From Gammaproteobacteria bacterium (GTDB lineage: Bacteria; Pseudomonadota; Gammaproteobacteria; GCA-001735895): 64,000 nucleotides of DNA. The position numbers were made by a program, and so were the translations under genes. Below the pieces are notes generated by a model. That model had not been told where the DNA came from. It worked only from the letters and a program-made list of their open reading frames with translations, and made no database searches. Location: positions 2,976-66,975 of the forward strand of contig JBNKUM010000067.1 of NCBI GenBank assembly GCA_050298595.1, written 5' to 3'. Shown piece by piece: positions 40,246 to 47,001 of the stretch; the stretch's first letter is position 1; each line of letters begins with the position of its first letter.

Positions 40246-40432
40246 GTAAGGTAGAGATACTCCGCCGCAAACGAGCAATTCAGCTCGTAGCAGAATTCAC
40301 CTATTTGGTTTTCAGCATGGATGATGTTATTTCGCGAATGCATGGACGCCTACATGGACGTAGGTGGTACGAGCTCAGGGGTGAGCGAAGGTAGGACAAT
40401 GCAGGACGCCTAAAGGGATTTAGGTGATAGAG
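40246..40432. repeat. Noncoding repeat element, copy B (same family as 6853-7112)
   Basis: About 85% identical core to copy A over roughly 110 nt; the 3' end is conserved (cctaaagggatttaggtgatagag versus ggttaaagggagttgctatcacctaagag); lies 40 nt after the CPBP stop and abuts the GDSL-lipase remnant. Confidence 0.6.
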
Positions 40433-40696: not shown

Positions 40697-41329
40697 ATGA
40701 TTCAGGCCCATACGCGGTCCTCTTTCAACATTATTTGGATATCCAGGAACTTCTGGTCTCGCAGGATCCAGCTCCTGGTACTCTGCAGATTATTTTTGTC
40801 ATTTATGAGTAGCCTTCGTTTAGTAAATCTATATAAACTGATTGTGATTGATGCGATATGTAGGCAGGTTCAAGAACAAACGTAACCCACCCCGTCTTTA
40901 TCATTTTTTGCCCGATTCAAAGTGCTAAATGCTTTGAAATTGACACCATTACCAGGATTAATGGAATCTGCTTGCGTTGCGACGAGAAATGCCGTTGTAA
41001 TGACGGTAACTTGATATGTATTCATCTTCTTTCCATAAGTACTATTGACACTTAGTTAACAGATATTGAATAGGCATACTCTAACGTAAGAGACAAAAAA
41101 CAATAAAAATGGTTGATCTAGCTTGATAGAATAAAAGTTGAGAAGCCGATATTCTAGCAACTCCTTATAACGTTTAACTGCATTAATTCAGAGCTGCTTA
41201 TTCCGCGCGTGTTTTGATTAAAAAAAGTGTCATTTTTGTAGATGACAAGAATCAGGTACACATAAAGTTATTCTTTGAGTGATTCGAAGTGTACCTATCT
41301 AAATACTCAGTACATGTGAACGGCTGCTC

Positions 41330-43030
41330 CTGGCACAGCCTGTGTGAAAACCCTACTTAGGAGTATAATAAGTCATTCAAATAGACAGGTGAAACAATGA
41401 CTGGATTCATTGAAGGCGTAGCCAGAATACAAGCCACCTTATTTCCTGAATTACTTGACGATTACATCAGCGAAGAAAATCCCGTTCGCGTTATTGATGC
41501 CTTTGTCGATAATCTTGACCTCGATAAATTGGGTTTCAAAACCTACCCAGCAATAACCGGTCGTCCTGGTTACCACCCATCCAGCATGCTCAAGCTGTTT
41601 ATCTACGGTTACCTCAATCGTATCCAGTCTTCTCGTCGTTTAGAAAGGGAGTCGGGGCGTAATGTCGAGTTAATGTGGTTACTCGGTCGTCTATCTCCCG
41701 ACTTTAAAACCATAGCTGACTTTAGAAAAGATAATGGTAAAGGCATTAAAAATACCTGTCGAACCTTTATCGATTTGTGCAGACAATTAAATATGTTCAC
41801 CGATGCTATTGTCGCCATTGATGGCAGTAAATTTAAAGCAGTCAATAGTAAAGAAAATAATTACACACCCAAGAAACTACAATTTCATATAGACCGGGTT
41901 GAGAAGCATATCGAAGACTATTTACAACAACTCGATACCGCTGACAGGGCAGAAAAACCAGAGACTGATGGCAGGTCTATCGAAGATAAAATCACCTGGC
42001 TTAAGAAAAGACTCGCTGAGTTAAAGGCACTGGAAGGTGAGGTGGACAATCATCCTGACAAACAACTATCAACAACGGATCCGGACTCTCGATTAATGAA
42101 AACACAAGGGATGACCAGAGTGGTTTGTTACAATGTACAAACGGCCGTTGACCCCAAAAACCACCTGATTGTAGCCCATAAGGTAACGAATACACCTGAT
42201 CGTGGACAACTCTGCGGTGTAGGTAAACTGGCTCAAGACGCACTGGATACTAAAGGGATCACTGTTATTGCTGACAAAGGTTATTACAGTGGCCAGGATA
42301 TCAAAGATGCTCAGGATGCGGGTATGACGGTACTTGTACCCAAAGGTGATACTTCTGGCAGCGAGAAAAAAGGCATATTTAACCGATCCCGGTTCGAATA
42401 CGATGCAGAGCAAGATAGATATATTTGCCCCGCCAAACAAGAGTTATCCTATCGATTCACTTCGGTTGAGAAAGGACTATCGTTAAAGAAGTATTGGGCC
42501 TATGAACCCACTTGTAGGGCTTGCTCGATGAAACCACAATGCTCTAACAGTAATCAGGCTCGTAGAATCACTCGTTGGGTTCATCAGGATAGATTGGATC
42601 AAATGGACAAGTTACTCTCTTCTCAGCCAGAGTGCATGCTCATCAGAAAGCAAACCGTTGAACACCCTTATGGCACGATTAAATGCTGGATGGGATCAAC
42701 TCATTTTTTAACGAGACAATTCAAAAATGTCAGCACCGAAATGAGTCTGCATGTTTTGGCTTACAATTTAAAACGCATGATGTCGTTATTTGGACAGGCT
42801 GGATTAGTCGCCGCAATGACAAAGGTATAGGGATTAATGGCCCATAGTAATTGCATCTATAAAATACGTCGATATGACGTGTTTATTCTTTTGTGTAAGC
42901 CAGACAATTTTCTTATTCATAAAAAGGACTCTGAAAATAAGGAAGCTCAGGACTTAGCATAAGAAGTCTGAATAATGACTGGAGGACGAAATTATTAAGA
43001 TAATAGTTTTTACACAGCCTGGGCACATAC
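41330..43030 (+). mobile_element. IS1182-family insertion sequence (about 1.7 kb) with imperfect terminal inverted repeats
   Basis: Left end …ggcacagcctgtgtgaaaaccc (about 41328-41350) versus right end ttttacacagcctgggcaca (about 43008-43030; its reverse complement gtgcccaggctgtgtaaaa matches). A single transposase ORF lies inside. Confidence 0.6.
41397..42830 (+). CDS. IS1182-family DDE transposase
   Basis: 477 aa; the N-terminus (…LFPE.LDDYI…NPVRVIDAFVD.LDL…GF…) and the downstream DDE region are typical of IS1182/IS5-superfamily transposases. Confidence 0.8.
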   Translation: MTGFIEGVARIQATLFPELLDDYISEENPVRVIDAFVDNLDLDKLGFKTYPAITGRPGYHPSSMLKLFIYGYLNRIQSSRRLERESGRNVELMWLLGRLSPDFKTIADFRKDNGKGIKNTCRTFIDLCRQLNMFTDAIVAIDGSKFKAVNSKENNYTPKKLQFHIDRVEKHIEDYLQQLDTADRAEKPETDGRSIEDKITWLKKRLAELKALEGEVDNHPDKQLSTTDPDSRLMKTQGMTRVVCYNVQTAVDPKNHLIVAHKVTNTPDRGQLCGVGKLAQDALDTKGITVIADKGYYSGQDIKDAQDAGMTVLVPKGDTSGSEKKGIFNRSRFEYDAEQDRYICPAKQELSYRFTSVEKGLSLKKYWAYEPTCRACSMKPQCSNSNQARRITRWVHQDRLDQMDKLLSSQPECMLIRKQTVEHPYGTIKCWMGSTHFLTRQFKNVSTEMSLHVLAYNLKRMMSLFGQAGLVAAMTKV

Positions 43031-43224
43031 CTCCCTTTGCACGGCACATCTTGAACGTCCTCAATTGCATCCCTGTCCCCCACCACCGCCGGGGAGATAC
43101 AAAATCAAACGCAGATGTGCAATCCAGGTATATTTATATCCCTAAACTATTGGCTTGACATTGGAGTAAACTGGAATAGTATATCTGGATATCCGTATAT
43201 GCGTATTACCACAACAGATCTACT

Positions 43225-43566
43225 ATGAATGAATTCTTTAAAGTTCTGGCCGATGAGACAAGATTAAGGTGTCTGGCATTAATTTTTGAAAACGATGAGC
43301 TTTGTGTATGTGAATTAATACATGCGCTGGATCTACCGCAATCTAAAATATCGCGTCATTTATCCATCATCAAGTTGAATAATCTAATCACCCAGAGGCG
43401 TGAAGGTCAATGGGTGTTATATTCAAAAGAACCGACGTTATCAGACTTCAAGACAGGTTTGATCAAAATGACTATCGATGAGTTAAGTAAAACCAGCATC
43501 TTCAAGCAGGATAAGAAAAGATTAGCCACTATGAATAATCGACCAGCCTTGAGTTGCTGTAAGTAA
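43225..43566 (+). CDS. arsR: ArsR/SmtB-family metalloregulatory transcriptional repressor
   Basis: 113 aa with a winged HTH and the metal(loid)-binding ELCVCEL motif in helix 3. Confidence 0.8.
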   Translation: MNEFFKVLADETRLRCLALIFENDELCVCELIHALDLPQSKISRHLSIIKLNNLITQRREGQWVLYSKEPTLSDFKTGLIKMTIDELSKTSIFKQDKKRLATMNNRPALSCCK

Positions 43567-44519
43567 TGTTTGAGTTATTAGCCGACTTGATAGCCTACCA
43601 ATTACTGGGCCTTTCGACAGAATCCCAGTTTGGACAGAGCATGCACTTTTTTGTTATGGATGTAACCAAAATCTTCTTCATGCTGATTGCAGTTATTTAT
43701 GTGATGGGTTTATTTCGCTCCTTTGTTTCTGCGGAAAGAGTCAGGGATTATGTACGCGGAAAATCAAGCTTAGTCGCCAGGATTTTAGCAATATTTCTGG
43801 GAGCGATTACCCCTTTTTGCTCCTGTTCATCGGTTCCTTTATTTATCGGTTTTGTAGAAGCAGGTATACCGCTAGGCGTCACCTTTTCTTTTCTGATTGC
43901 CAGTCCGATGATTAATGAAATCGCGGTCGTGATGCTGTGGGGAATTGTCGGTTGGAAAATCACCGTGTTGTATGTAGTGTCGGGTATGTTCGCCGCATTT
44001 TTTGGCGGCATGGTGATGGAAAAATTCAAACCCGAAAGATGGGTTGAAGATTATGTGTGGAAAATCAAGGTGGGTGAGGCTGCAAGATTAGAGCAGGATA
44101 ACTCACTCAAAGCGAGACATTATTATGCTTATGCACAGGTCGATGAAATTGTCACGCGTATCTGGAAGTGGGTAATCCTGGGGGTTGGTGCAGGAGCCTT
44201 ATTTCATGGCTATTTTCCAGAAGCATGGGCTACAAACCTAAGCGATAGTAATAATTTCTTCGCGGTACCGATGGCAGTGCTTATCGGCGTTCCGCTCTAC
44301 TCGAATGCTGTTGGTGTTATCCCCTTAGCCGAAGCGATGTTGTTAAAAGGTGTTGCGATTGGAACAACGCTCAGTTTTATGATGAGTATTGCGGCCATAT
44401 CATTGCCAGAATTATTGATTCTAAAGAAGGTCATAAAATGGCAGGCTCTGGCACTATTTACTGCTATAGTGGCTATATCAATTATTTTAGTTGGCTGGTT
44501 TTTTAATATTATTCTGTGA
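43566..44519 (+). CDS. DUF318/ArsP-type permease with a vicinal-cysteine TPFCSCS motif (putative organoarsenical/metalloid efflux permease)
   Basis: 8-TM permease with a conserved TPFCSCSS motif in a TM helix; start overlaps the arsR stop; followed by a thioredoxin-like gene, the usual context for this family. Confidence 0.7.
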   Translation: MFELLADLIAYQLLGLSTESQFGQSMHFFVMDVTKIFFMLIAVIYVMGLFRSFVSAERVRDYVRGKSSLVARILAIFLGAITPFCSCSSVPLFIGFVEAGIPLGVTFSFLIASPMINEIAVVMLWGIVGWKITVLYVVSGMFAAFFGGMVMEKFKPERWVEDYVWKIKVGEAARLEQDNSLKARHYYAYAQVDEIVTRIWKWVILGVGAGALFHGYFPEAWATNLSDSNNFFAVPMAVLIGVPLYSNAVGVIPLAEAMLLKGVAIGTTLSFMMSIAAISLPELLILKKVIKWQALALFTAIVAISIILVGWFFNIIL

Positions 44520-44527
44520 GGTGAAAA

Positions 44528-44794
44528 ATGATAGAAGTTAAGGTTTTAGGTTCTGGTTGTGCTAATTGTAAAAACACACAAAAGTTGATCGAAGAGGTTA
44601 CCGATGAAAATGGCATAGCCATAAACCTGCAGAAGGTAGAGGATATGGCTGAGATAATGTCGTATGGCATTATGTCAACGCCGGGTGTCATCGTTGATGG
44701 TAAAATAGCTCACGCAGGTGGCGTGCCAGATAAAAAAACAATCCTGTCCTGGTTTAAGGCATCCTGTTGCCCAGGTGATGATAATTGCTGTTAG
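44528..44794 (+). CDS. Thioredoxin-fold 'redox-active disulfide protein 2' family protein with a C-terminal Cys-rich tail (CCPGDDNCC)
   Basis: MIEVKVLGSGCANCK…YGIMSTPGVIVDGK matches the small TM0996/MTH895-type thioredoxin family (CxxC); a 15-aa tail carries two vicinal Cys pairs. Confidence 0.7.
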   Translation: MIEVKVLGSGCANCKNTQKLIEEVTDENGIAINLQKVEDMAEIMSYGIMSTPGVIVDGKIAHAGGVPDKKTILSWFKASCCPGDDNCC

Positions 44795-44935: not shown

Positions 44936-47001
44936 TTATAGGTTGTTCCGTAACCCTTCAATAGCCAATTTAAACTCATTAATGTCAGTAACGGGTTCAC
45001 GGCAGATCATGCCTTCGCAAAGATATGCTGATACCTGATCATTAATCGGTTTCTTATCATGGAATATGTCTGAAACTTCTGCCTGTTCGTCTACTGGAAA
45101 ACACAGAACATCAGGCAGGTAATATTGGTTAACTATCTGCTGCCATTCCTTTATTGCCTTGTGCTCACCACGAAGAATGACAATGGTAACAGAGTGAAGA
45201 TGGATATCGACCGCATTAAGCATAGAGGCATAGGCTATTGGTTGTTTGGCCAGCTGTAAAGAAGCTGCGCTTATGGTTTTTTCTGCGACATCAAGATAAC
45301 GGGGTTCAGTGCACAGATAACCCAGATAGTATAAAGCCTGAGCAGCAATCGCGTTGCCAGAAGGCATGGCATCATCATTAAATGTCTGGCTGCGCAGAAT
45401 CAGGTTTTCATGGTCATTGCGGGTGAAATAAAACCACCACTTTTCTTATTGGCAAAATCATCGATTAGGCTATCTGCCAGTTCAACACACCATGTAAATA
45501 TATCTTTATCCCATTTTGCCTGTAGCGCTTCGATACAGCTGAGCAACAAGTAGGCGTAATCATCCAGATAGGCATTCAGATGAGCCTTGCCATCTTTCCA
45601 GGTTGCAAGCAATCGGCCATCATGCCAGATATATTGGCGCACAAAGTCGAGTGCGCGGAATGCAGATTTTGCATAGTCAGGACGATTGAGTATACGTGCG
45701 GCAATCAACATGCCACGTATCATCAGCGCATTCCATGAGGTTAGTACCTTGTCATCGGTGCCAGGTTTGATACGCCGATTACGGTGTTCAAACAATTGAT
45801 GACGCGAGCTTTCCAGTGATTCAATTATTTCAACTTCTTTCAGGCCGAATTTTTGACTGAGTTGTGTGTAGGTACGGTAGATGTGCGGATACCAGCTACC
45901 CTCAAAATTCGCTGGGCGATCCAGTCCGTAGGTTTTTATAAAAATATCAAACTCAAATTCGGATAGCAGGTGCTTAACCTCCTCTACCTGCCAGATATAA
46001 TATTTACCTTCCTCACCTTCAGAATCTGCATCCTGTGAGGAATAGTAACCACCCGCAGGTGATTGCATTTCACGCATAAGCCAGTCAGCGGTTAGAGATA
46101 TTGCCCGTTCATAATAGTGGTTTCGTCGTAGTTGATTAGCCCAGACATATATCGGCATCAACTGTCCATTGTCATAAAGCATTTTTTCAAAGTGCGGTAT
46201 CATCCATTGATCGTCAGTAGAGTATCGACAGAAGCCGCCGCCAATCTGATCGAATAAACCACCCTGAGCCATTTTTTCTGCTGTAAATAAACCGGCCTCA
46301 AGTAAGTTAGCATAATCACTCCCATAGAGTGAAAACTGACGCAGACAGCGTTCAACAAAACAGGCATGTGGGAACTTGGGTCTAGGCGTAAAGCCGCCAT
46401 CATCCGCATCGAATTGCTCCAGCAATTGTTGGGACATTACTGCAAAAATATTATCGCTTAACTCGGCCTGATGCTTCGCTGGTTGATTGATATGTTGCAG
46501 TTGTTCAAGTAACGACCGGTTTTGAAATTCGATATCGTTGCGTTTTGTATTATAGGCATTGTGCACAGCCTGAATAATGGACCTGAAAGATTGCATGCCA
46601 TAACGTTCCTGCGGTGGAAAGTAGGTACCCGCAAGAAAAGGCGTCTGGTCATCTGGCATCAGGAACAGGGTTAGTGGCCAGCCACCGCCGCGATGGGTTA
46701 ATACTTGATGCGCCAGTTGATAGATCTTGTCCAGATCCGGGCGTTCTTCACGATCAACCTTGATATTGATGAAATACTCATTCATCAATGCTGCTGTTTG
46801 TTCATCTTCGAAAGATTCATGCGCCATCACATGGCACCAGTGGCAGGCGGAATAACCAATGGATAATAGTACAGGCTTATCCTGTTCTAGAGCTAGTCTT
46901 AAGGCTTCATCTCCCCAGGGGTGCCAGTCCACAGGATTGTGTTTGTGCTGTAAAAGATAAGGACTGGTTTCATCGGCCAGTCGGTTTTCATGCGTATTCA
47001 T
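44936..47001 (-). pseudogene. yyaL: Thioredoxin-domain protein YyaL (DUF255) disrupted by a single frameshift
   Basis: An N-terminal 533-aa ORF (thioredoxin CHWCHVM, six-hairpin glycosidase-like region) ends at …KKSGGFISP. The expected continuation ([31 protein letters not shown]…) reads in another frame. Consistent with loss of one base in the A/T homopolymer at 45431-45434. Confidence 0.7.

What the first reader, a model, noticed from the sequence alone, without database searches (positions are those of the whole stretch)
43225..44794. IS-adjacent arsR / ArsP-type permease / thioredoxin-like cassette whose thioredoxin has a CC-x5-CC tail
The three-gene cassette (ArsR repressor with ELCVCEL; DUF318 permease with the vicinal-Cys TPFCSCS motif described for the methylarsenite efflux permease ArsP; small CxxC 'redox-active disulfide protein 2') lies right next to the IS1182 element, which suggests horizontal acquisition. 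The thioredoxin-fold protein ends with an extra SCCPGDDNCC tail. Two vicinal cysteine pairs are a classic soft-metal or As(III) chelating arrangement that the minimal family members lack. This could be a metallochaperone-like add-on that hands substrate to the permease. No arsB/acr3/arsC accompany it, so the cassette may target organoarsenicals or another thiophilic toxicant.
Basis: partly seen in the sequence, partly recalled or inferred. Interest (0 to 1): 0.55.

Follow-up and report, generated by a model that had tools for sequence, protein, structure and literature searches.

The report
ArsD-like cysteine tail on arsenic-permease partner
A common three-gene metalloid-efflux operon (regulator, ArsP-type permease, small thioredoxin-like protein) in a sulfur-bacterium genome, whose thioredoxin-like protein has a conserved CC-x5-CC end like that of the arsenic chaperone ArsD; the neighbouring insertion sequence is a recent, unrelated arrival.

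Summary
The three ORFs, their motifs and the adjacent IS1182 are all present as described. Profile searches confirm ArsR/SmtB, ArsP_1 (PF03773) and TIGR00412 ("MTH895/ArsE family").

The horizontal-acquisition reading fails. Sister genomes about 99.6% identical have the cassette in the same chromosomal position without the IS.

The permease + thioredoxin-like pair is a widespread, known module. It was found in 85 of 86 loci. In tail-less relatives it often lies inside full ars clusters with acr3, arsC, arsM and arsD.

The tail is not a local oddity. CCPxDDxCC-COOH is kept in 114 of the 120 closest homologues, and its Cys codons vary synonymously. It defines a clade of sulfur-oxidising Gammaproteobacteria (Thioploca, Thiomargarita, mussel symbionts). 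Other CC-rich tails occur elsewhere in the family.

The new point is that ArsD, the As(III) metallochaperone, ends in the same CC-x5-CC-COOH arrangement. ArsD is also a detectable remote homologue of this protein's core (hhalign 95.8% with tails removed).

Best reading: an ArsD-like thiol binder that serves an ArsP-type permease. The substrate is unproven, because tailed loci mostly lack other ars genes. This is a new variant of a known kind, of moderate interest.

The parts
41338..43019 (+). IS1182-family insertion sequence (transposase ORF 41397-42830). It is a neighbour of the cassette, not part of it.
   Evidence: NF033551 at 429 bits. The boundaries come from alignment to the empty site in L001/L003. 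The terminal inverted repeats are GCCTGTGTGAAAAC and GGCTGTGTAAAAAC, and the duplicated target is about 7-9 bp (CCTGGCACA). The IS is present in L002 and absent in L001, L003 and L004.
43155..43182 (+). Sigma-70-like promoter of the operon (TTGACA, 16-nt spacer, TAGTAT).
   Evidence: 10 of 12 consensus matches, 43 bp upstream of the arsR ATG. It lies about 135 bp downstream of the IS end, so the IS does not disrupt it.
43181..43202 (+). Candidate ArsR operator, ATATCTGGATATCC-G-TATATGC, overlapping the -10 element.
   Evidence: The same sequence sits at the same position upstream of arsR in L007, L008, L009 and L095. Degenerate versions occur in L015, L016 and L093. Binding was not tested.
43225..43566 (+). 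arsR: an ArsR/SmtB metalloregulator with an ELCVCEL (Cys27/Cys29) site and a terminal Cys111-Cys112.
   Evidence: HTH_5 at 41 bits and NF033788 at 85 bits against a cutoff of 55. The CVC motif is conserved across relatives. The C-terminal CC is variable within the clade.
43566..44519 (+). ArsP-family (PF03773) permease of 317 aa. TPFCSCS is at residues 82-88 (43809-43829).
   Evidence: PF03773 at 227 bits. SaoE scores 132 against a cutoff of 325 and SO_0444 scores 106 against 300, both below cutoff. Cys85 and Cys87 are the only Cys conserved in 71 of 71 permeases. Hydropathy shows two hydrophobic bundles around a hydrophilic loop of about 75 aa.
44528..44794 (+). MTH895/ArsE-family thioredoxin-like protein of 88 aa. 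CANC is at 44558-44569.
   Evidence: TIGR00412 at 93.4 bits against a cutoff of 62. PDB 1ILO (MTH895) hits at E 1.5e-11. The AF2 model has pLDDT 86 and a thioredoxin fold, and Foldseek to 1ILO gives TM 0.79. CxxC and the cis-Pro are kept in about 164 of 165 family cores.
44762..44791 (+). C-terminal tail SCCPGDDNCC (residues 79-88): CC-x5-CC-COOH.
   Evidence: Present in 114 of the 120 closest homologues. C80, C87 and C88 are invariant, and C81 and P82 are kept in at least 90%. TGT/TGC vary synonymously at all four Cys codons. pLDDT is about 53, so the tail is probably flexible. The pattern is the same as the ArsD C-terminus GCCGGNTSCC*.

Best explanation
This is a chromosomal, self-regulated three-gene efflux operon: arsR, an ArsP-family permease, and an MTH895/ArsE-family thioredoxin-like protein. 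The host is a sulfur-oxidising gammaproteobacterium whose closest named relative is Thioploca.

Proposed mechanism:
1. ArsR carries the CVC site used by As(III)-type ArsR repressors. It probably sits on a conserved operator that overlaps the -10 element and leaves when a thiophilic inducer binds.
2. The permease exports a trivalent, thiol-reactive species through its only conserved cysteines (C-S-C).
3. The small cytosolic thioredoxin-fold partner keeps a CxxC. In this clade it has also gained a flexible CC-x5-CC-COOH tail.
4. That tail has the same architecture as the C-terminus of the As(III) metallochaperone ArsD, which is a remote homologue of the same fold.
5. The partner therefore most likely captures As(III), methylarsenite or Sb(III) on its cysteine pairs. 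It would buffer the metalloid and/or pass it by thiol exchange to the permease, as ArsD does for ArsA.

Shown here:
- Gene identities and operon layout.
- Conservation of, and selection on, the tail.
- The ArsD homology and the tail parallel.
- Ars-cluster context of sister lineages.
- The IS is incidental.

Inferred:
- Metalloid binding by the tail.
- Hand-off to the permease.
- Arsenic as the physiological substrate in this clade.
For: - Family assignments.
- The pair permease + thioredoxin-like protein occurs in 85 of 86 loci.
- In tail-less relatives the pair sits inside real ars clusters. Acr3 scores TIGR00832 385 bits against a cutoff of 283, ArsM scores NF008823 369 against 263, and LMW ArsC is also present. 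Counts are acr3 in 32 loci, arsC in 29, arsM in 13 and true arsD in 4.
- Enterobacterial and arsenite-oxidiser plasmids carry the pair beside arsR-arsC-arsD or acr3-arsC.
- Within the tailed clade, Ca. Albibeggiatoa (L017) has an ArsC-like LMW phosphatase between the permease and the tailed protein (TIGR02691 at 125 bits, below its cutoff of 174).
- In a neighbour-joining tree the tailed-clade permeases lie next to ars-embedded relatives.
- The tail is conserved with synonymous Cys codon changes.
- R773 ArsD was verified at 100% identity in plasmid NZ_LT985319 and ends in GCCGGNTSCC*. ArsD homologues in L021, L023, L029 and L080 end in CC-x4/5-CC.
- hhalign of the family against ArsD gives 90.7% with tails. 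With tails removed from both, and 165 cores against 4 ArsDs, it gives 95.8% and E 6.8e-9.
- In a phmmer search with ArsD, the TIGR00412 proteins are the next hits after the true ArsDs.
- Literature: the ArsD cysteine pairs are described as metalloid-binding sites (PMC12607644; PMC4562236).
- At least 11 of 150 50%-identity cluster representatives carry two or more CC pairs in a C-terminal extension, which points to a recurrent selected function.
Against: - Tailed loci are almost always stand-alone. With at least 5 kb of upstream sequence, 1 of 10 CC-tailed loci has acr3, arsC or arsM nearby, against 26 of 40 tail-less loci. This count is not phylogenetically corrected.
- Some close relatives sit next to CDF metal exporters (Ghiorsea) or include a SoxH-like metallo-hydrolase and a rhodanese (the L093 genome, whose tailed protein is closest to those of mussel gill symbionts).
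- The CSC motif is shared with Cu/Zn exporters.
- In ArsD the C-terminal pairs are reported to be unnecessary for chaperone activity; Cys12, Cys13 and Cys18 do that job. By analogy the tail could be auxiliary.
- One MAG (L016) has lost the tail through a nonsense mutation at the domain boundary, and L012 has lost one Cys.
- The window protein does not reach PF06953 (ArsD) in a Pfam scan at E<=0.01.
- No binding or transport data exist.
Confidence: 0.5

Rival explanations
1. Redox maintenance rather than chaperoning. The thioredoxin-like protein uses its CxxC to keep the permease's Cys85/Cys87 reduced, or to supply electrons to a reductase step. Examples are ArsC, or the reduction attributed to ArsE with ArsF in Shewanella (recalled from memory, not checked). 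The tail would be an auxiliary or resolving thiol relay.
For: - CxxC and the cis-Pro loop are kept in about 164 of 165 family members, as in redox-active thioredoxins.
- The closest solved structures are thioredoxins and MTH895.
- In L017 a thioredoxin-dependent-type ArsC homologue sits directly upstream of the tailed protein.
- Castillo and Saier proposed a redox role for 'redox-active disulfide protein 2' in ars operons.
Against: - A redox role does not explain why two vicinal pairs at a flexible C-terminus recur, or why they mirror ArsD, which lacks the CxxC.
- Most tailed loci encode no reductase partner nearby.
- Vicinal CC pairs are poor disulfide formers and good As(III) ligands. This is established chemistry, not tested here.
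Confidence: 0.2
2. In the tailed clade the module no longer handles arsenic. It handles another thiophilic species common in sulfidic habitats, such as Cu(I), Zn, Cd, Hg, or reactive sulfur, selenium or tellurium compounds. The tail would then be a general soft-metal or persulfide carrier.
For: - Tailed loci lack ars neighbours (1 of 10 against 26 of 40).
- The closest tail-less relatives (Ghiorsea, L022 and L024) have a CDF exporter immediately downstream.
- L093 inserts a SoxH-like metallo-hydrolase and a rhodanese inside the operon. That rhodanese's second-best NCBIfam hit is the selenite/tellurite protein ExtH. L090-L092 have the SoxH-like gene divergent upstream.
- The permease shows sub-threshold similarity to the SO_0444 Cu/Zn exporter and to SaoE.
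- The CSC motif is shared with those families.
Against: - The regulator keeps the ELCVC(E/D)L site and scores best with the general ArsR/SmtB models. BigR, CmtR and TsoR score far below their cutoffs.
- L017 carries an ArsC-like gene inside a tailed operon.
- Sister permease lineages are ars-embedded.
- The same SoxH-like hydrolase also occurs between acr3 and the permease in Thiobacillus ars clusters (L031).
Confidence: 0.22
3. The cassette was brought in by the IS1182 element or with it.
For: The IS lies about 205 bp upstream of arsR. In other species the module sits in varying genomic contexts, so it does move over long timescales. A DDE transposase also lies near the module in L093 and L013.
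Against: L001 and L003 are about 99.6% identical to the window and have the same flanking genes and the cassette, but an intact empty target site. L004 is 85-92% identical and also lacks the IS. The IS has its own inverted repeats and a target duplication that do not enclose the cassette. GC content across the cassette (0.37-0.44) is within the range of the flanks.
Confidence: 0.03
4. The tail has no specific function, or acts only as a sensor or regulatory appendage, as in the early repressor model for ArsD.
For: - The tail is lost or damaged in two MAGs (L016, L012).
- The ArsD C-terminal pairs are dispensable for chaperoning and were linked to regulation.
- The tail has low model confidence.
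Against: - There is strong amino-acid conservation with synonymous codon turnover across about 70-98% identical homologues.
- CC tails recur in distant branches.
- The protein has no DNA-binding domain, and an ArsR is already present.
Confidence: 0.05

Closest known systems
ArsD, the As(III) metallochaperone of arsRDABC operons (R773; Pfam PF06953)
   Same: - It has a thioredoxin-type fold.
- It is a detectable remote homologue over the cis-Pro/beta3-beta4/alpha region (hhalign 95.8%, E 6.8e-9, tails removed).
- Its cysteines sit at the position of the thioredoxin active site.
- Its C-terminus has the same form, CC-x5-CC-COOH: GCCGGNTSCC* against SCCPGDDNCC*.
- The tail is present in only part of the family in both cases.
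   Different: - ArsD uses Cys12-Cys13-x4-Cys18, not CxxC.
- ArsD is 120 aa, with a linker of about 14 residues before the tail.
- ArsD delivers to the ArsA ATPase, not to a secondary permease. No arsA is present here.
- The window protein does not hit PF06953.
MTH895/ArsE family thioredoxin-like proteins (TIGR00412; 'small redox-active disulfide protein 2'; PDB 1ILO)
   Same: - It scores above the family cutoff (93.4 against 62).
- It has the CANC motif at the N-terminus and a one-domain core of about 77 aa.
- It lies adjacent to an ArsP-family permease, as in many ars clusters.
   Different: Typical members stop at about 76-80 aa. This clade adds the conserved 10-residue CCPxDDxCC tail. I found no description of such tails in the searchable literature.
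ArsP, the methylarsenite/roxarsone(III) efflux permease of Campylobacter jejuni (TC 2.A.119; PF03773)
   Same: It has the PF03773 domain at 227 bits, a size of about 300 aa with two hydrophobic bundles, a conserved Cys pair in a TM segment, and an ArsR-controlled operon.
   Different: A direct comparison with the characterised protein was not possible, because neither its sequence nor the paper was available. C. jejuni ArsP works without a thioredoxin-like partner. Two arsP clusters of possibly different function have been reported.
[quoted passage not shown]
   Same: It pairs an ArsP-family exporter with a small thioredoxin-like protein that carries extra cysteine. Cys-Cys motifs are interpreted as heavy-metal ligands.
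   Different: Scores are far below the family cutoffs: SaoE 132 against 325 and SaoT 16 against 65. In SaoT the extra Cys lies inside the CxxC (CxCC), not in a tail. None of the other seven sao genes is present.

Membership tests
TIGR00412 MTH895/ArsE thioredoxin-like family | Whole-protein HMM score above the curated cutoff | tested here: met
   93.4 bits against a cutoff of 62. Pfam Thioredoxin_3 at 92.4 against 24.8.
TIGR00412 MTH895/ArsE thioredoxin-like family | Minimal one-domain thioredoxin fold with an N-terminal CxxC and a cis-Pro loop | tested here: met
   CANC at residues 11-14 and TP at 51-52. The AF2 model has pLDDT 86 with a beta-alpha-beta-alpha-beta-beta-alpha order. Foldseek to 1ILO gives TM 0.79.
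TIGR00412 MTH895/ArsE thioredoxin-like family | Organoarsenical-resistance activity attributed to ArsE | not testable with these tools
   The ArsEFG paper is not held. Only the family name and a secondary citation are available.
ArsP permease family (PF03773, TC 2.A.119) | PF03773 domain over the full length | tested here: met
   227 bits, covering residues 22-314 of 317.
ArsP permease family (PF03773, TC 2.A.119) | Conserved membrane-embedded cysteine pair | tested here: met
   TPFCSCS is invariant in 71 of 71 permeases, and no other Cys is conserved. The motif is not specific to arsenical transport.
ArsP permease family (PF03773, TC 2.A.119) | Location in an ars operon or under ArsR control | tested here: inconclusive
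   ArsR is adjacent and translationally coupled. No other ars gene is in the window. Sister lineages are ars-embedded.
ArsP permease family (PF03773, TC 2.A.119) | Efflux of MAs(III) or Rox(III) | not testable with these tools
   Needs transport or resistance assays.
ArsD metallochaperone (PF06953) | Pfam ArsD profile match | tested here: not met
   No PF06953 hit at E<=0.01. Only remote profile-profile similarity was found.
ArsD metallochaperone (PF06953) | Cys12-Cys13-Cys18 metalloid-binding site | tested here: not met
   The equivalent position carries C11-A-N-C14.
ArsD metallochaperone (PF06953) | C-terminal vicinal pairs Cys112-113 and Cys119-120 (CC-x5-CC-COOH; present in a subset of ArsDs) | tested here: met
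   SCCPGDDNCC* against GCCGGNTSCC*. The arrangement is the same; common descent of the tails is not shown.
ArsD metallochaperone (PF06953) | Partner ArsA ATPase | tested here: not met
   No arsA in the window.
ArsR/SmtB As(III)-responsive repressors | HTH_5 domain and family HMM above cutoff | tested here: met
   PF01022 at 41 against 22, and NF033788 at 85 against 55.
ArsR/SmtB As(III)-responsive repressors | ELCVCDLC-type cysteine site in the DNA-binding region | tested here: met
   ELCVCEL has two of the three R773 cysteines. Two are reported to be sufficient for binding. The motif is conserved in relatives.
ArsR/SmtB As(III)-responsive repressors | Derepression by As(III), Sb(III) or MAs(III) | not testable with these tools
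   Needs EMSA or reporter assays. A candidate operator lies at 43181-43202.
SaoE / SaoT (SAO system) | Equivalog HMM scores above cutoff and the nine-gene sao neighbourhood | tested here: not met
   SaoE 132 against 325 and SaoT 16.4 against 65. No other sao genes are nearby.
SO_0444 Cu/Zn efflux transporters | Equivalog HMM score above cutoff | tested here: not met
   106 against 300.
IS1182 family insertion sequence | IS1182 transposase, terminal inverted repeats and target duplication | tested here: met
   429 bits against a cutoff of 270. Inverted repeats and the duplicated CCTGGCACA were seen against the empty site.

The most novel reading that the evidence does not exclude
The MTH895/ArsE thioredoxin-like proteins that travel with ArsP-family permeases would be the ArsD equivalents for secondary carriers. 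They would be dedicated cytosolic metalloid chaperones that bind As(III) or MAs(III) on the CxxC plus a C-terminal CC-x5-CC 'fishing line' and pass it to the permease's C-S-C site. The Cys-pair tail would be a module that both ArsD and this family have gained repeatedly, notably where the permease pair stands alone without ArsD or other ars genes.
Probability: 0.3. Interest if true: 0.65.

Novelty: new variant of a known kind. Interest (0 to 1): 0.45.

Why it matters
The ArsP-type permease plus small thioredoxin-like protein pair is very common in bacterial ars islands, including clinical Enterobacteriaceae plasmids. It is still annotated only as "permease" and "thioredoxin family protein", and the partner has no established role.

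The partner is a remote homologue of ArsD. In several lineages it carries an ArsD-style CC-x5-CC C-terminus under selection. This gives a specific, cheap-to-test hypothesis: metalloid binding and hand-off to a secondary carrier.

It also identifies natural variants for the test: tailed, tail-less, and nonsense-truncated forms.

Finally, it bears on how large sulfur bacteria and mussel symbionts cope with thiophilic toxicants in sulfidic habitats.

Tried and rejected
- The primary ArsP paper (PMC4681449), the ArsEFG paper (DOI) and the uptake/efflux review (PMC6472914) are not held. What I say about ArsEFG beyond searches comes from memory.
- The Foldseek search against the PDB returned only generic thioredoxins and MTH895. 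It cannot discriminate an ArsD-like fold.
- hhalign of the shallow clade alignment without the tail against a single ArsD sequence was weak (38%, E 3.4e-4). Only the deeper alignments gave 95.8%.
- The ArsR C-terminal CC looked like the MAs(III)-selective Cys101-102 site. It is not conserved within the clade, so I do not build on it.
- Single-linkage clustering of neighbour ORFs over-merged families; the 'sigma70' and 'DUF1631' labels are unreliable. I relied on direct HMM scans of chosen neighbours instead.
- The Rfam scan of the window found nothing. The repeat scan around the IS gave nothing beyond the operator-like palindromes.
- The TGA codons in the L016 tail were considered as possible selenocysteine. 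They are better explained by a nonsense change plus a 5-nt deletion.
- The association between CC tails and absence of ars neighbours (p=0.003) is not corrected for phylogeny. It rests on perhaps three independent tail origins, so it is only suggestive.
Full report
**Observation**

- arsR, 43225-43566, 113 aa, with ELCVCEL and a terminal SCCK.
- A 317-aa permease, 43566-44519, with TPFCSCS. Its start overlaps the arsR stop by one base.
- An 88-aa protein, 44528-44794, with CANC at residues 11-14 and the C-terminus SCCPGDDNCC. A GAGG ribosome-binding site precedes it.

Profile searches confirm the assignments.
- ArsR/SmtB: NF033788 at 85 bits, cutoff 55.
- ArsP_1 PF03773: 227 bits.
- TIGR00412: 93.4 bits, cutoff 62. 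NCBI now names this family "MTH895/ArsE family thioredoxin-like protein".
- IS1182 transposase: 429 bits, cutoff 270.

The permease is not a member of the two curated sub-families it weakly resembles. SaoE scores 132 against a cutoff of 325, and SO_0444 scores 106 against 300.

No acr3, arsA, arsB, arsD, arsM, or either type of arsC is detectable anywhere in the 64-kb window.

A promoter with 10 of 12 consensus matches lies 43 bp upstream of arsR. Directly after its -10 element comes ATATCTGGATATCC-N-ATATGC. This sequence is conserved at the same place in related loci and is a candidate operator.

**The insertion sequence**

An exact-sequence look-up of the 88-aa protein returned six contigs from closely related MAGs. 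L002 has the same IS. L001 and L003 do not. They are about 99.6% identical over the flanks and share the same gene order: GFA, GNAT, Rce1-like, cassette, DUF255, and onwards. L004 is 85-92% identical and also lacks the IS.

Alignment to the empty site places the element at about 41338-43019. It has imperfect terminal inverted repeats and a duplication of CCTGGCACA.

The IS therefore inserted about 205 bp upstream of a cassette that was already there, and it leaves the promoter intact. It says nothing about how the cassette was acquired. Base composition is also unremarkable.

**How common the cassette is**

A scan of one genome per species returned 80 loci encoding relatives of the 88-aa protein. 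Together with the six sister contigs, 85 of 86 loci also encode a relative of the permease. In most it lies immediately upstream, and in the others it is separated by one inserted gene.

In the tail-less relatives (55-70% identity; Thiobacillus, Azonexus, Sedimenticola, Thiocapsa and others) the pair often sits in genuine ars clusters.
- Thiobacillus has acr3, the permease, arsM, then the thioredoxin-like gene. Acr3 scores 385 bits (cutoff 283) and ArsM scores 369 (cutoff 263).
- Overall, 32 loci carry acr3, 29 an LMW-type arsC, 13 arsM, 8 a CDF exporter and 4 a true arsD.

Plasmids of Enterobacteriaceae, and one plasmid of an arsenite oxidiser, carry "permease" plus "thioredoxin family protein" next to arsR-arsC-arsD or acr3-arsC.

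The association has been noted before.
- Castillo and Saier listed "redox-active disulfide protein 2" as an ars-operon determinant.
- A Pseudodesulfovibrio study describes an arsenic-induced arsR-arsP-arsE operon.
- Haft describes the related SaoE/SaoT pair.

So the gene trio itself is a known kind of module.

**The tail**

Of the 120 best homologues, 115 are exactly 88 aa and 114 end in CC-x(3-8)-CC. The consensus is SSCCP[AGT]DDNCC.

In an alignment of 25 diverse members, C80, C87 and C88 are invariant. C81 and P82 are kept in at least 90%.

At the DNA level, each of the four Cys codons switches between TGT and TGC among species while remaining Cys. This is the signature of purifying selection.

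Named sources are Thioploca, Thiothrix, Thiomargarita, Ca. Venteria, Ca. Albibeggiatoa, and symbionts of Bathymodiolus and of a lucinid clam.

In the species-level set the tail is confined to the loci with at least 70% identity (L007-L015 and L017-L019). The next tier ends at ...SWL, as does MTH895.

The tail can be lost.
- In L016 a TCA-to-TGA change exactly at the domain boundary, plus a small deletion, removes it.
- In L012 the first Cys is Tyr.

CC-rich tails also occur elsewhere.
- L033 ends in CCPDNSATSGGCSDEKCC, L075 in GGCCSGGGNNGGCC and L043 in GSGCCGGCGS.
- A search with the core alone, against representatives of 50%-identity clusters, found about 11 of 150 with two or more CC pairs in a C-terminal extension. 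About 17 have at least one. Spacers and copy numbers vary widely.

The model of the protein is a confident thioredoxin fold (pLDDT 86). The last eight residues score about 53, so they are probably flexible.

**The ArsD parallel**

The R773 ArsD sequence was verified at 100% identity in plasmid NZ_LT985319, where it is annotated as the ArsD metallochaperone beside arsA, arsB and arsC. It ends in ...SGCCGGNTSCC followed by a stop: CC-x5-CC-COOH. True ArsD homologues in four of my loci end in CC-x4/5-CC.

Profile-profile comparison of the clade alignment with ArsD gives 90.7% probability. It aligns STPGVIVDGKIAHAGGVPDKKTILSWF with EGLPLLLLDGETVMAGRYPKRAELARWF, and tail with tail.

With the tails removed the signal from the shallow alignment is weak. 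With 165 family cores against four tail-less ArsDs it is 95.8%, E 6.8e-9.

In a plain phmmer search of all locus ORFs with ArsD, the hits that follow the four true ArsDs are all TIGR00412 proteins, including tail-less ones.

According to the literature, the ArsD cysteine pairs are metalloid-binding sites. Only Cys12-13 (with Cys18) is conserved and needed for transfer to ArsA. The C-terminal pairs are found in a subset of ArsDs and were tied to the older repressor model.

The window protein is not an ArsD.
- It has no PF06953 hit.
- It has CxxC instead of CC-x4-C.
- No ArsA is present.

It is, however, a small thioredoxin-fold relative with cysteines at the same structural position and the same kind of C-terminus.

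**What it most likely does**

The permease has exactly two conserved cysteines (C-S-C) in 71 of 71 sequences. The partner keeps CxxC and the cis-Pro in about 164 of 165.

The simplest model is thiol-exchange handling of a trivalent thiophilic species. The cytosolic partner binds it on the tail pairs, possibly together with the CxxC. It then either buffers it or passes it to the permease.

Arsenic or antimony is favoured by four observations.
- The regulator's ELCVCEL site.
- The ars context of sister lineages.
- A neighbour-joining tree in which tailed-clade permeases lie beside ars-embedded ones.
- L017, where an ArsC-like gene sits between the permease and the tailed protein.

Against this, tailed loci are otherwise stand-alone. 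With at least 5 kb of upstream sequence, 1 of 10 CC-tailed loci has ars neighbours against 26 of 40 tail-less loci (Fisher p=0.003, not phylogenetically corrected).

Other observations keep a non-arsenic thiophilic substrate open.
- The nearest tail-less relatives in Ghiorsea carry a CDF exporter.
- The L093 genome inserts a SoxH-like hydrolase and a rhodanese into the operon.
- The CSC motif is shared with Cu/Zn exporters.

The same pattern could instead mean that the tail compensates for the absence of ArsD. In the four loci with a tailed ArsD, the thioredoxin-like partner is tail-less.

**Verdict**

- The family assignments, and the idea of a selected soft-metal(loid)-binding add-on, are supported.
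- The IS-based acquisition idea is refuted.
- The organoarsenical specificity is unproven.
- The module is known.
- The conserved ArsD-style tail on the ArsE/MTH895-type partner, and its recurrence, appear undescribed in the literature I could search.

I rate it a new variant of a known kind, of moderate interest and readily testable.

Noticed in passing
window 44936-47001 (- strand): The DUF255/YyaL-type thioredoxin-domain gene downstream of the cassette is split into 533-aa and 143-aa ORFs by a 1-nt deletion in an A-run near 45431. It is intact (687-688 aa) in sister MAGs L001 and L004. The same lesion is in L002, L003 and L005.
   Followed up: partly
window 43181-43202 and 40735-40744: The operator-like sequence ATATCTGGATATCC-N-ATATGC after the arsR -10 element is conserved in related loci. 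A second perfect TGGATATCCA palindrome lies about 2.4 kb upstream (about 0.8 kb without the IS), in a region with only small ORFs.
   Followed up: partly
window 40287-40323: A duplication of about 36 bp relative to sister MAG L001, in the intergenic region upstream of the IS.
   Followed up: no
L016:2026-2330: In Thioploca sp. CSMAG_545 the tail is removed by a TCA-to-TGA change exactly at the domain/tail boundary, and the terminal CC is destroyed by a small deletion. This is a natural tail-less variant of a tailed lineage, or an assembly error.
   Followed up: partly
L093:1839-5267; L090-L092:2588-5267: In a 1.5-Mb genome (L093, GCA_030142985.1), whose tailed protein is closest to those of Bathymodiolus gill symbionts, the operon reads arsR, permease, SoxH-like metallo-hydrolase, rhodanese, tailed thioredoxin-like protein. 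Bathymodiolus symbiont contigs have the SoxH-like gene divergent upstream. The same hydrolase type sits between acr3 and the permease in Thiobacillus L031.
   Followed up: partly
L021:4218-4580, L023:4180-4578, L029:4207-4575, L080:2544-3119: True ArsD homologues in betaproteobacterial loci also end in CC-x4/5-CC. In these loci the permease's thioredoxin-like partner has no tail.
   Followed up: partly
window 43225-43566 (ArsR residues 111-112): ArsR ends in a vicinal Cys pair (SCCK), reminiscent of the Cys101-102 site of MAs(III)-selective ArsR. The pair is present in some relatives (L007-L009, L011, L040, L063) and absent in others of the same clade (L012, L015-L017).
   Followed up: yes
L088 (NZ_CP027145.1) and about 1000 other plasmid records: Homologues of the permease at about 42-47% identity are on 1018 PLSDB plasmids, mostly E. 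coli and Salmonella. They are annotated only as 'permease' with an adjacent 'thioredoxin family protein', next to arsR-arsC-arsD.
   Followed up: partly
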